IMG/VR virus record: IMGVR_UViG_3300033067_000735
Location: 1-37,979 of that record
Reading direction: 5' to 3' (one strand)
Source of the DNA: a virus
Lineage: Duplodnaviria > Caudoviricetes
Length of the DNA stretch: 37,979 nucleotides
In this document: positions 4,016 through 8,551 of the stretch, one piece after another
How positions within the stretch are numbered: the first letter of the stretch is position 1
Layout: the number at the start of each line of letters is the position of its first letter
The notes under the pieces: model-generated
Told to the model about the DNA's origin: nothing
Databases searched by the model: none
What the model saw: the letters and a program-made list of their open reading frames with translations, nothing else
Position numbers and translations under genes: made by a program

Positions 4016-4407
4016 CGGAACTGCGGAGGTGGTCTGAGTTTTCGGAGAGCGAGAGGGCCGAAGCCGTAGCCAAGGCGCGGCACATCATTGCCGAGGCGCG
4101 CGGCGGCATGTGGCACTGGCACACGGTCGCCAAGCAGTGCGGCTGCAAAAGCGGGGACGGTATCCGCCGCGCGCTCGACCCGACTTGGCGCGAGGCGTGC
4201 GCCGCGAAGAAGCGTGAGGCGAAGGGCGATCCGGGCGTCGTGGCTGCCCGGCACAATATGCACGCCGAGGCCCGATCCGGGAAGGTCGACCACGACACGT
4301 TCGCGGCCCGGCTGGCGGAAATCCCGCCCGACACGCGCAACCTGACCGGCGTCGTGTTCGGCGACCCTCTGCCCGGCCGTTCCGCGCTCGCCCGGAGGCA
4401 CGCATGA
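4012..4407 (+). CDS. Hypothetical phage protein
   Basis: Coupled ORF; C-terminal DTRNLTGVVFGDPLPGRSAL resembles a recurring motif in rhizobial prophage proteins. Confidence 0.7.
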   Translation: MTELRRWSEFSESERAEAVAKARHIIAEARGGMWHWHTVAKQCGCKSGDGIRRALDPTWREACAAKKREAKGDPGVVAARHNMHAEARSGKVDHDTFAARLAEIPPDTRNLTGVVFGDPLPGRSALARRHA

Positions 4408-4931
4408 CCGGCTGGACGGAAGAGCGCCTGACCCGCGCCGAAGCTCTCTGGCGCGGCGGGCACATGTCGGCGCGGGACATCGCTGCGGACATCGGCGGCG
4501 GACTGACCCGCAACGCCATCATCGGCAAGGCGCACCGCGGGAAGTGGGGCGAGCGGCCGCGTATCGGCCGGCAGGGGCAGGGCAGGCCGCCCAAGGCTGA
4601 CCGCCCGAAGTCGCACAAGCAGACCATCCGCAAGCCGCCGCGCCCGGTCGAGCGCAACTACAGCCTCGGCTTCGGCTCTCGGTTTCAGTCCGAAGTCCCG
4701 GTGCCGCCGACGCCCGTCATCGAGCCGCCCACGCCGCCCGTCGCGCGCATGGTGTCGCTCATGGACCTCAAGTTCGGCGATTGCCGCTTCCCGCTCGGCG
4801 ACCCGCGGCATGCCGACTTCGGCTACTGCGGCGCCAAGGCGGCTCCGGGCCGGTCGTACTGCGACTGGCACGCACAGCTGGCCTATCAGCCCGTCCAGAC
4901 CCGGCGGCAGCGGGAGGCGGCGCACGCATGA
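4404..4931 (+). CDS. gcrA: GcrA-family cell-cycle transcription regulator
   Basis: N-terminal WTEER...LW...SA..IA...TRNAIIGKAHR and C-terminal CRFPLGDP...FGYCG...YCDWH..LAYQ. Confidence 0.92.
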   Translation: MTGWTEERLTRAEALWRGGHMSARDIAADIGGGLTRNAIIGKAHRGKWGERPRIGRQGQGRPPKADRPKSHKQTIRKPPRPVERNYSLGFGSRFQSEVPVPPTPVIEPPTPPVARMVSLMDLKFGDCRFPLGDPRHADFGYCGAKAAPGRSYCDWHAQLAYQPVQTRRQREAAHA

Positions 4932-6330: not shown

Positions 6331-6524
6331 TGGCGGACCAGCTCACCGACCTGATCCGTCACGCCGAGGCCCTTGTCGCCTCGATCAACTACGACGACAG
6401 CGGCACGAACGGGCAGGGCGGCAACGGCGGGCTGATCTCGCGGGAGACGATCCGGAAGACGGATGCCCTCCGCATGGCGATCTACGAGGCCAAACGGCAG
6501 GAAAGGGACGCCGACCATGGTTGA
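6330..6524 (+). CDS. Hypothetical 64-aa protein
   Basis: TGATG coupling with the initiator gene. Confidence 0.7.
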   Translation: MADQLTDLIRHAEALVASINYDDSGTNGQGGNGGLISRETIRKTDALRMAIYEAKRQERDADHG

Positions 6525-7206
6525 GCCTGTGACGCTGCTCGACGGGCGGGTGACGCTGTATCTGGGCGATTGCCGCAGCATTTTGCCGACGCTGGGCAAG
6601 GTCGATGCCGTGGTGACAGACCCGCCTTATGGGATCAGGGCAAACGAAAATCCCGTCAGGTCAAAGTGGGGCAAAGACGTCATTCAGGGCGGCAACTGGG
6701 ACCGCGACAGGCCCCCCGCATCCGTGATGCATGCGATGCGGGAAGTGAGCGACCATCAAATTATCTGGGGCGGAAACTACTTCACGGATTATCTCCCGCC
6801 GTCGATGCAGTGGCTTATCTGGGATAAGGGCTCGCGGGAGTTTTCTCTGGCTGACTGCGAGATGGCGTGGTCATCAAAGCACGCAGCCGCCCGTATCATA
6901 AGCTATTCGAGGGCGAAAGCGCAGCAGGACGGCAAGGAACACCCGACGCAGAAGCCGATCGAGGTCATGGAGTGGGCGATCAGCCAACTGCCGCTGCCGT
7001 CCGACACGATCCTCGATCCGTTCATGGGGAGCGGCACAACTGGCGTTGCCGCTGTGAAGCTAGGCCGCCGCTTCATCGGCATTGAGATCGAAGAGCGTTA
7101 CTTCCAAATCGCATGCAGGCGCATCGAGGAGGCTTCCAAGCAGTTAGACTTTTTCGTCAGGCATGACGATCCCAAGCCCGAAACCGCGCTGCTGCCAGGT
7201 ATGTAG
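6517..7206 (+). CDS. Orphan beta-class N6-adenine/N4-cytosine DNA methyltransferase
   Basis: DPPY precedes HPTQKP and DPFMGSGTT; no cognate restriction gene seen. Confidence 0.92.
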   Translation: MVEPVTLLDGRVTLYLGDCRSILPTLGKVDAVVTDPPYGIRANENPVRSKWGKDVIQGGNWDRDRPPASVMHAMREVSDHQIIWGGNYFTDYLPPSMQWLIWDKGSREFSLADCEMAWSSKHAAARIISYSRAKAQQDGKEHPTQKPIEVMEWAISQLPLPSDTILDPFMGSGTTGVAAVKLGRRFIGIEIEERYFQIACRRIEEASKQLDFFVRHDDPKPETALLPGM

Positions 7207-7695
7207 CCGATGGCAATTAGCGCAAAGAAGTTCAAGGTTCCCGGCATTCGCCTCCCAATCACGGAAGCGCCTGCCCCAAGTGTATCCGGTCTTCGGCCGT
7301 ACCTTGGTCGATGGGTCGATGTGGTTGATGTCAAGCGCCCGCACGTCGGCGAAGCCGCACTCTCGGCACTTGCCACCGAGCGCTTCGATCAGCGCCAGCT
7401 TACGGCGCCAATTGCGCGGATGCCTGTGCGTTTTGGCACCATGAAGGTTCCAGTAGTCCTTCTGGCATCTCGGTGTGCAGAACTGGGTCGTGCACTTTGC
7501 GCCGCATTGCTTGCAGGCTCCCGTGCCGCCCCATCTGGCTTCCAGGTAGCAGGCTCGCCCGCAGTATTTCCCGGTCCCGTTTCGGAGCCGGTAGGAGTGC
7601 ATCTTGGCCTGCGATCCGCAGTGAGCGCATGTGATTTGTACTGGGTCTGTTCTCATGCTCCGACCCTATCAACATACGCTGTAAACGCAAGGCCC
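7096..7695 (-). mobile_element. 600-bp HNH cassette inserted in the methyltransferase 3' end
   Basis: The methyltransferase C-terminal coding segment occurs at 7096 and again at 7696, in frame, bracketing an antisense HNH gene with its own promoter-like element. Confidence 0.75.
7144..7656 (-). CDS. Zn-finger HNH (homing-type) endonuclease
   Basis: Several CxxC motifs; LGGKCRECG...LDINHID...NLELLCANCHRLH; TTGCGT-N16-TAGGGT six bases before ATG. Confidence 0.85.
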   Translation of the reverse strand: MRTDPVQITCAHCGSQAKMHSYRLRNGTGKYCGRACYLEARWGGTGACKQCGAKCTTQFCTPRCQKDYWNLHGAKTHRHPRNWRRKLALIEALGGKCRECGFADVRALDINHIDPSTKVRPKTGYTWGRRFRDWEANAGNLELLCANCHRLHTWQQRGFGLGIVMPDEKV

Positions 7696-7800
7696 CGCTA
7701 TTTCGACATCGCCTGTCGTCGAATTGAGGAAGCCTCCAAGCAGGCCGACCTCTTCATCGAGCCCGCTCCCGCTCCCAAGCAGGAGACGATGGCCCTATGA
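7696..7800 (+). pseudogene. Displaced original 3' end of the methyltransferase (RYFDIACRRIEEASKQADLFIEPAPAPKQETMAL)
   Basis: 15 of 16 residues identical to 7096..7143; its stop overlaps the next ATG (ATGA). Confidence 0.8.
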
Positions 7801-8366
7801 GCCGCAAGAAGCGCAAGCCCGGCCACCGCGAGCCCAACGGACGCCTCTCCCGCCGCGTCCTACACACCAAGGAGCGCGAGGAGATGACCCAACGCGAGGC
7901 ACAGTCCGTCGCCATCGCCGCTCGCATGCGCCACACCGGATTGCCCGAGGAGGTCGTCAGCCTCAACGTCGCCGGCAGGCCCAACGCTGGGACCCTCCAT
8001 GGCATCATGTGCCTCCGGGGCGATATCTCCCGCGAGCAGTGGGATGCAGCCGAGTGGTGGATCGGCAAGCGCGGGGCATGGCTCAGGGCGATCGAATCCC
8101 CCAACCAGGAGACAGGCCGCACCGAGGGGGGAGGGCAGTTCGACCCCGATCGTCACGCCGAGTTCTGCCGCATGGCCCGGGAGAGCTGGTCCGCCGTCTG
8201 CGATTGCATCCAGACCGCATCCACAGAAAACCGCGCCCCGCTCATGTCGGCCCTCGACGTGTTTCTCGTTCGCGGCCACCATCTGCAACACATGGTCGGG
8301 GATCTGAGGATTGCGCTCAACGCCGTGCATCGGCGGTTTCTGGCGGGACAGAGGAGGACGGGATGA
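7797..8366 (+). CDS. Hypothetical protein at the late-regulator (Q-like) position
   Basis: Basic N-terminus RKRKPGHREPNGRLSR; lies just upstream of the late promoter/terminator; function inferred from position. Confidence 0.6.
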   Translation: MSRKKRKPGHREPNGRLSRRVLHTKEREEMTQREAQSVAIAARMRHTGLPEEVVSLNVAGRPNAGTLHGIMCLRGDISREQWDAAEWWIGKRGAWLRAIESPNQETGRTEGGGQFDPDRHAEFCRMARESWSAVCDCIQTASTENRAPLMSALDVFLVRGHHLQHMVGDLRIALNAVHRRFLAGQRRTG

Positions 8367-8551
8367 GCGAGTGGCAGCCTATCGAGACAGCGCCGAGGGA
8401 CGGGAGAGAGATGATATTGCTCATTGGGCTGTCGGGTTGGCCCGGGGTTGGGTGGTCGGACACATGGTGGACGCGTAACTACACCGCCGGGGGCGTGCCG
8501 ACGCATTGGATGCGGATCGAGCCGCTGCCCGTGCCGCCGCCGCGGGACTAA
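8363..8551 (+). CDS. DUF551-like small protein
   Basis: MSEWQPIETAPRDG...PTHWM; GAGGAGG RBS. Confidence 0.8.
   Translation: MSEWQPIETAPRDGREMILLIGLSGWPGVGWSDTWWTRNYTAGGVPTHWMRIEPLPVPPPRD

What the first reader, a model, noticed from the sequence alone, without database searches (positions are those of the whole stretch)
7096..7800. Self-repairing antisense HNH cassette: exactly 600 bp, in frame, with a recoded replacement 3' end for its target gene
Seen: RYF(Q/D)IACRRIEEASKQ is encoded at 7096 and again at 7696. 15 of 16 residues match, yet 9 of those 15 codons differ synonymously (12 of 48 nt). The downstream copy still overlaps the next start codon, so it looks like the ancestral end. Between them is an antisense HNH gene with its own promoter at the cassette edge. 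The sense frame has a single stop (TAG 7204), followed by ATG 7210, and stays open to 7800. Inference: an intron-less and intein-less homing element that keeps the methyltransferase functional, makes its own allele cleavage-resistant, and preserves translational coupling to the downstream gene by re-initiation or amber read-through.
Basis: partly seen in the sequence, partly recalled or inferred. Interest (0 to 1): 0.8.

Follow-up and report, generated by a model that had tools for sequence, protein, structure and literature searches.

The report
Gene-end-replacing nuclease with junk-frame bridge
A 600-base nuclease cassette sits backwards in the end of a phage DNA-methylase gene and supplies a recoded replacement end; in all 13 complete backwards copies found, its reverse strand has no stop codons, which likely carries ribosomes across the insert so the next gene is still expressed.

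Summary
A near-identical phage lacks exactly 7092-7691, so this is a precise 600-bp insertion and the downstream copy is the original gene end. The insert holds a recoded MTase end, an antisense HNH gene and a conserved extended -10 motif. It belongs to a family: 13 of 13 complete antisense cassettes, in diverse MTases, duplicate the C-terminus at this site. Re-initiation holds up. All 13 keep a stop-free 'bridge' frame of 181-241 codons, starting within -8..+9 nt of the replacement stop and fused in frame to the displaced end. The codons that would close it occur 0 times against 46 expected (controls 31 vs 42, 231 vs 292). Cleavage, homing and translation of the bridge are untested. Closest known: fungal mitochondrial mORFs (replacement C-termini) and the ShiLan hidden HNH. 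My searches found no paper on the bridge. This scan noted similar bridges earlier on other DNA (e1-9759187, e1-3273944). New variant; interest 0.72.

The parts
6517..7206 (+). Phage DNA methyltransferase gene (N6/N4 family; DPPY near the N-terminus, FMGSGTT near the C-terminus), now ending in cassette-supplied sequence
   Evidence: Pfam PF01555 E 6e-26; PHROG 67 E 2e-52; translation
7092..7691 (.). The 600-bp mobile cassette, inserted inside a Glu codon of the GIEIE motif with no target-site duplication
   Evidence: Comparison with empty allele L002; joint 7091->7692 in public contigs
7092..7206 (+). Replacement 3' end of the MTase: recoded conserved helix (7096-7143), then a tail that runs over the antisense of the HNH 3' end and stops at TAG 7204-7206
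   Evidence: The TAG is the antisense of the only TCA/CTA/TTA codon in this HNH gene
7144..7656 (-). HNH endonuclease gene (170 aa): N-terminal Cys repeats, C-terminal CxxC...H...N...CxxCH domain
   Evidence: PHROG 2255 E 5e-15; H112, N140, C97/C100 and C145/C148 invariant in 36 relatives; model pLDDT 86; best structural matches are HNH domains but weak (Z 4.6)
7663..7671 (-). Predicted extended -10 promoter (TG-A-TAGGGT) ending 6 nt before the HNH ATG; likely gives a leaderless transcript
   Evidence: TAnnnT at -12..-7 in 11 of 13 cassettes, TGn before it in 10 of 13; not found by the -35/-10 scan
7210..7800 (+). 'Bridge' ORF (196 aa): codon-aligned antisense of the HNH gene plus the spacer, fused in frame to the displaced MTase end; its ATG is the antisense of the HNH His149 codon
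   Evidence: no Pfam or PHROG hit
7692..7800 (+). Displaced original 3' end of the MTase, identical to the empty allele; its TGA overlaps the next ATG (ATGA)
   Evidence: no mismatch to L002 over 7692-8184
7797..8366 (+). Downstream coupled gene of unknown function, lying before the terminase and portal genes
   Evidence: PHROG 15385 E 8e-25; Atlas lead DUF6456 at rank 23, on 46% of that cluster's members

Best explanation
This is a 600-bp mobile cassette whose HNH nuclease likely cuts empty methyltransferase alleles and is copied in by homing; it supplies a recoded gene end that is predicted to keep the enzyme whole and the allele uncut, and its stop-free reverse frame likely carries ribosomes across the insert to the old stop codon. 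Steps: (1) a leaderless antisense transcript makes the HNH (inferred from the motif). (2) The HNH recognises the conserved stretch coding GIExExxYFDIACxRI and breaks the empty allele; recombination copies the cassette in (inferred; the precise insertion itself is shown). (3) The replacement end completes the MTase frame (shown). It alters the site, above all the Asp codon, so neither half forms an intact target (pattern shown, immunity inferred). (4) Ribosomes that stop at the replacement end re-initiate on an adjacent ATG, read a junk frame through the HNH's reverse strand and the displaced end, and stop on the original codon that overlaps the next gene's start. This would restore translational coupling and avoid about 500 nt of ribosome-free mRNA that could cause polarity (selection on the open frame shown, purpose inferred).
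For: Precise insert in 99%-identical flanks. Same site in MTases only 32-70% identical to the window's: 13 of 13 complete antisense and 4 of 4 sense-oriented family loci carry both ends. Bridge open and fused in frame in 13 of 13, 181-241 codons long. TCA/CTA/TTA codons under the bridge: 0 in 2,087 codons against 45.9 or 41.6 expected, with four-fold sites near saturation between members (11-47% identity, one pair 60%). All 11 such codons in these genes lie in the 167 codons outside the bridge, and 5 of them serve as the MTase stop. Controls: host MTases 31 vs 42.4, non-antisense relatives 35 vs 40.5, 90 other HNH loci 231 vs 292. Five spacer lengths (36, 39, 42, 45, 66 nt) are all multiples of 3, and all 13 spacers are stop-free. 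An ATG lies within -8..+9 nt of the replacement stop in 14 of 14, reached through three different tail frames; 5 use an ATGA overlap. The His codon is CAT in 10 of 10 loci whose tail frame puts it at the bridge start, and in 6 of 13 others. 60 of 80 related MTases end in an ATGA/GTGA overlap. L248 lost the HNH 5' half but kept the bridge in frame, and L170 has a same-strand +1 bridge. Asp after YF: 61 of 79 empty alleles, 12 of 13 displaced ends, 1 of 18 replacements. Synonymous differences replacement vs own displaced end 59 of 84, against 47% among empty alleles.
Against: No cleavage, homing or expression data. Family members share ancestry, so the counts are not fully independent, and the tree is poorly resolved (2 of 14 inner branches well supported). 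The controls also run 15-27% below the null, so the true expectation is nearer 33-39 than 46. The displaced stop overlaps a following ORF of 40 aa or more in only 9 of 13, and several downstream genes, including this one, have a GGAG-like sequence of their own, so coupling may not be strictly required. Three AT-rich sense-oriented cassettes (L167-L169) have no bridge, and the L170 +1 frame alone is not significant (P 0.17). Three of 4 degenerate cassettes do not keep a bridge to a displaced end. In this window the replacement is the least recoded of the family: its synonymous divergence from empty alleles (0.49) equals background. Fold matches to HNH structures are weak (none at E<=0.001).
Confidence: 0.74

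Rival explanations
1. It is a homing cassette, but the open reverse frame serves the element rather than the downstream gene: translation keeps the sense transcript running so that it silences the toxic HNH by convergent transcription, or the bridge protein itself has a role.
For: The bridge covers the HNH gene and its promoter, and several downstream genes have their own SD-like motif. Tight control of phage homing endonucleases is reviewed in PMC2988022 (passages).
Against: Silencing does not require in-frame fusion to the displaced end, yet the spacers are multiples of 3 in 13 of 13. The bridge stays in frame in L248 after the HNH 5' half and its start were deleted. First positions of bridge codons are the saturated third positions of the HNH, so the bridge protein sequence is not conserved.
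Confidence: 0.12
2. The insert is read through in frame (amber suppression, or a ShiLan-like fusion), giving a long MTase that ends in its original tail.
For: In this window and 4 relatives the insert is a multiple of 3 with a single stop. ShiLan inserts are stop-free in the host frame (PMC11855218, abstract).
Against: 8 of 13 inserts are not multiples of 3. The stops are TAG, TGA and TAA. A complete replacement tail makes read-through unnecessary.
Confidence: 0.04
3. The duplication is a neutral recombination scar between two phages, and the open frame is a by-product of GC-rich codon use.
For: In the window alone the open frame has P about 0.045. Each replacement resembles its own host lineage (own end ranks first in 7 of 13), as recombination among relatives would give.
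Against: The same site and layout occur in 17 loci. There are 0 against 42-46 expected stops, including in genes with GC3 0.40-0.59. The junction is precise and the HNH active-site residues are conserved.
Confidence: 0.04
4. The insert is a self-splicing intron or intein, or the HNH is a fixed phage function such as a terminase cofactor.
For: It lies about 1 kb upstream of the terminase genes. Inteins with antisense endonucleases exist (bioRxiv 10.1101/2025.01.02.630785, passages).
Against: No Rfam match at E<=1. The sense RNA folds no better than shuffles (z -1.1). Outside the HNH gene only 52 + 35 nt remain. There is a stop in the host frame. The near-identical phage L002 lacks the gene.
Confidence: 0.03

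Closest known systems
Mobile endonuclease ORFs (mORFs) of fungal mitochondria: Allomyces macrogynus atp6; Glomus sp. atp6, atp9, cox2, nad3 (PMC3630166, passages read)
   Same: An endonuclease gene inserts near a gene's 3' end, brings a foreign C-terminus in phase with the host gene and displaces the native end downstream; the native end matches the uninvaded relative.
   Different: Here the element is a phage HNH rather than LAGLIDADG or GIY-YIG, lies on the opposite strand with its own promoter motif, overlaps the replacement tail, and keeps a second, selected open frame that rejoins the displaced end. The passages I read mention no such frame.
ShiLan domain, a hidden out-of-frame HNH in actinophage DNA methylases (PMC11855218; abstract, second part of Results and Discussion read)
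   Same: An HNH element in a phage DNA methylase, neither intron nor intein, with an overlapping frame kept free of stops.
   Different: ShiLan is translated as a loop inside the methylase, and the text has no hit for antisense, opposite, duplicat or coupling. Here the host gene is completed before the insert, and the open frame is a separate re-initiated ORF. The phage collection holds no close relative of this HNH (5 hits, 32-40% identity).
Free-standing phage homing endonucleases and intronless homing (T4 seg/mob genes; Aeh1 mobE in nrdA; T4 mobA in gene 60) (PMC2988022 passages; PMC3045599 abstract start and passages)
   Same: Intron-less HNH genes that spread by cleavage and repair; some insert inside coding regions, and some overlap neighbouring stop and start codons.
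   Different: Those insertions split the host protein or lie between genes, and their cut sites are often far from the insertion site. Here the insertion is at the presumed target and the gene is completed by a replacement end.
Inteins with antisense or out-of-frame endonucleases (bioRxiv 10.1101/2025.01.02.630785, passages)
   Same: An endonuclease on the antisense strand whose opposite frame must stay open.
   Different: There the open frame is removed by protein splicing; here there is no splicing domain and the frame begins after a stop.

Membership tests
Free-standing HNH homing endonuclease gene | HNH nuclease domain with intact catalytic and zinc residues | tested here: met
   PHROG HNH E 5e-15; H112, N140 and two CxxC pairs invariant in 36 sequences; Pfam HNH below its cut-off; weak HNH fold matches
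Free-standing HNH homing endonuclease gene | Optional presence: occupied and empty alleles in near-identical genomes | tested here: met
   L002; both forms in public contigs
Free-standing HNH homing endonuclease gene | Not within an intron or intein | tested here: met
   No Rfam hit; no unusual folding; 87 nt outside the HNH ORF; stop in the host frame
Free-standing HNH homing endonuclease gene | Cleaves the empty allele, spares its own, and is over-inherited in mixed infection | not testable with these tools
   Indirect only: Asp codon altered in 13 of 13 replacements against 28% of 72 empty alleles
mORF-type gene-end-replacing element | Carries an in-phase replacement C-terminus and displaces the native end | tested here: met
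   17 of 17 complete family loci
mORF-type gene-end-replacing element | Mitochondrial LAGLIDADG or GIY-YIG endonuclease (the described members) | tested here: not met
   Phage HNH: it works like an mORF but is not a member
ShiLan-type hidden HNH | Insert adds no stop in the host frame, so the host protein is translated through it | tested here: not met
   TAG at 7204; a replacement stop in all 14 antisense loci; 8 of 13 inserts not multiples of 3
Group I/II intron | Conserved ribozyme structure | tested here: not met
Group I/II intron | Spliced RNA product | not testable with these tools
   No raw RNA reads available; only contigs could be laid
Beta-class N6/N4 DNA methyltransferase (host gene) | Catalytic DPPY motif before the FxGxG SAM-binding motif | tested here: met
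   Order visible; PF01555 above cut-off; the class definition is recalled, not from a call

The most novel reading that the evidence does not exclude
Phage homing endonucleases have a third way, besides RNA and protein splicing, to make an insertion harmless: replace the interrupted gene end and evolve a junk reading frame over their own gene that hands ribosomes back to the host operon. This family has built such a bridge repeatedly, in three antisense coupling geometries and once as a same-strand +1 frame, so selection for a translated but sequence-free ORF shapes the codon use of the nuclease.
Probability: 0.65. Interest if true: 0.85.

Novelty: new variant of a known kind. Interest (0 to 1): 0.72.

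Why it matters
It shows a selfish gene paying a measurable codon cost (three codons banned over about 160 codons) to keep its host operon working. That gives a clean sequence test for overlapping ORFs that are selected for being translated rather than for their product. It extends gene-end replacement, described from fungal mitochondria, to phages. It supplies a matched empty/occupied pair for a direct homing assay, and a family of small HNH nucleases with a predicted target site. It also warns annotators: gene callers have already recorded these bridges as hypothetical proteins (P0043, P0044).

Tried and rejected
Divisible-by-3 rule and amber read-through: rejected. Intron: no Rfam hit, no unusual fold. 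The standard sigma-70 scan found no promoter. GC bias as the cause of the open frame: rejected by two null models and three control sets. L042, L046 and L050 looked like further duplications but are tandem full MTase genes. L243, L254 and L266 were false pattern matches and were dropped; L084 and L171 are distant HNHs without the MTase layout. Annotated phages hold no close HNH relative. The search with the bridge protein returned mostly MTase tails, one further antisense bridge (P0044) and two likely +1 bridges (P0083, P0098, judged from protein only). Expression: no RNA holder listed, and only contigs could be laid. Fold searches gave only weak HNH matches. Literature searches listed no phage paper on a replacement end plus a coupled antisense frame; find-searches in PMC10448857, PMC12724721 and PMC8393795 showed none. 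Subscription papers and supplements were not seen. Look-ups in the scan's own notes by sequence and by place returned nothing.

Full report
Setting. The window is a 37,979-bp virus record with a replication initiator, terminase, P22-like portal and capsid genes. A GcrA-like gene (below cut-off) suggests an alphaproteobacterial host; that GcrA is typical of this class is my own knowledge. The finding lies in an N6/N4 DNA methyltransferase gene (6517-7206) between the replication and packaging genes.

Observation. The antisense ORF is an HNH nuclease with invariant H112, N140 and two CxxC pairs among 36 sequences. A near-identical phage, L002, lacks it. Base-by-base comparison gives an insert of exactly 7092-7691 with no target duplication; the downstream copy is identical to the empty allele's gene end. 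Flanks differ at 5 of 1,592 nt upstream and not at all over 7692-8184, so the event is recent. Contigs from two runs bridge both junctions, and the empty joint appears in 5 of 8 runs laid, which excludes an assembly artefact.

Family. I collected relatives by HNH protein similarity or HNH motif patterns only, so the selection is blind to the opposite frame. With the window there are 22 distinct family loci beside an MTase motif: 13 complete antisense cassettes, 1 cut by a contig end (L165), 4 with the HNH 5' part deleted (L184, L248, L251, L253) and 4 in sense orientation (L167-L170). I dropped 3 false pattern matches and 2 distant HNHs. All 17 complete loci carry a replacement end before the nuclease and a displaced end after it. 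The host MTases are 32-70% identical to the window's, and the antisense HNHs 36-87% to each other.

Insert length is a multiple of 3 in only 5 of 13 (remainder 2 in seven, 1 in one), and the replacement stop is TAG, TGA or TAA. The 600-bp length and amber read-through are therefore incidental. Splicing is unlikely.

What holds. In all 13 the codon-aligned reverse frame of the HNH is open and runs in frame into the displaced end, 181-241 codons from its ATG. A stop in that frame needs TCA, CTA or TTA in the HNH. Under the bridge there are 0 in 2,087 codons, against 45.9 expected from each gene's own third-position use or 41.6 by synonymous resampling. Four-fold sites are close to saturated between members, except L250/L255, so this is ongoing selection rather than one inherited sequence. 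Controls sit near the null: 31 vs 42.4 in host MTases, 35 vs 40.5 in five non-antisense relatives, and 231 vs 292 in 90 other HNH loci, four of which are family duplicates. All 11 such codons in the 13 genes lie in the 167 codons outside the bridge; 5 of them are the MTase stop itself. The non-coding spacer takes five lengths, all multiples of 3 (chance at most 1 in 81 for four changes), and is stop-free in 13 of 13. An ATG lies within -8..+9 nt of the replacement stop in 14 of 14, through three tail frames. Where the tail frame puts the HNH His codon at the bridge start it is CAT in 10 of 10, elsewhere in 6 of 13 (not independent). The need is plausible: 60 of 80 related MTase genes end in an ATGA/GTGA overlap with the next gene, and 10 of 13 displaced ends end in ATGA, although a following ORF of 40 aa or more overlaps in only 9 of 13. 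L248 kept the bridge in frame after losing half the nuclease, and L170 has a same-strand version in the +1 frame (alone P 0.17). Against this, the AT-rich sense cassettes L167-L169 and three degenerate loci have no bridge.

Recoding. The residue after YF is Asp in 61 of 79 empty alleles and 12 of 13 displaced ends, but in 1 of 18 replacements. The third base of that codon differs from consensus in 13 of 13 replacements. Replacement and own displaced end differ at 59 of 84 synonymous codons, against 47% among 72 empty alleles, yet in protein each replacement resembles its own host's end (mean rank 2.1 of 13; 0 of 20,000 permutations reached the score). This fits a tail kept functional for its host lineage but altered at the DNA level, either to escape cleavage or to avoid deletion between the repeats. 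In the window itself the synonymous divergence is at background level, so this argument rests on the family.

Promoter. The -35/-10 scan found nothing. TAnnnT lies at -12..-7 of the HNH ATG in 11 of 13, preceded by TGn in 10 of 13, the layout expected of a leaderless extended -10 promoter (inference).

Mechanism. Shown: precise optional insertion, completed host frame, family-wide target site, recoding pattern, and selection on an open, coupled, in-frame bridge. Inferred: cleavage and homing, immunity of the occupied allele, translation of the bridge, and whether coupling or avoidance of polarity is the benefit. Overall confidence 0.74; about 0.9 for the homing cassette with a replacement end.

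Comparison. Replacement of a gene end by an endonuclease element is known from fungal mitochondria (PMC3630166, passages). A stop-free overlapping frame over an HNH in a phage methylase is known from ShiLan (PMC11855218; abstract and named sections), where the insert is read as part of the enzyme. Intronless homing and gene-splitting insertions are reviewed in PMC2988022 (passages). Nine literature searches listed no paper that combines these features or describes a re-initiated bridge; subscription journals and supplements were not seen. The scan's own unchecked notes describe similar layouts on other DNA. They gave me the mORF and ShiLan leads but are not evidence; my bridge reading was written down before I saw them.

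Verdict. A real, recently mobile, gene-end-replacing HNH cassette with a selected junk-frame bridge. New variant of a known kind; interest 0.72.

Noticed in passing
L170 (about 600-1270); proteins P0083, P0098: Sense-oriented cassette: the replacement stop overlaps (ATGA) a +1 frame that is open across the whole HNH and fused to the displaced end. Two database 'hypothetical proteins' look like the same kind of +1 bridge.
   Followed up: partly
L248, L184, L253, L251: Degenerate cassettes that lost the HNH 5' part but keep the replacement end, so the MTase tail is now permanently the antisense of an HNH remnant. L248 keeps a shortened in-frame bridge.
   Followed up: partly
window 8363-8551: A short gene (weak PHROG 924 hit) between the downstream gene and a TTGACA-containing stretch is swapped for a different short hydrophobic ORF in L002.
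   Followed up: no
L002 1-90: L002 has a second MTase-like C-terminus (86% identical to window 7711-7800) about 3.5 kb upstream, also ending in an ATGA overlap; the window has no such copy.
   Followed up: no
L042, L046, L050: Two or more related MTase genes in tandem or near-tandem in one phage, mostly joined to the next gene by ATGA overlaps.
   Followed up: partly
window 4404-4931 and 2126-2863: GcrA-like sigma-70 cofactor and a queuine tRNA-ribosyltransferase-like gene (PHROG 887) in the early region.
   Followed up: no
L257 (HNH C-terminus): The second His of the CHRxH motif is replaced by Leu (TTA), whose antisense supplies the MTase stop, so the stop position moved by one codon through a change in the nuclease.
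   Followed up: no
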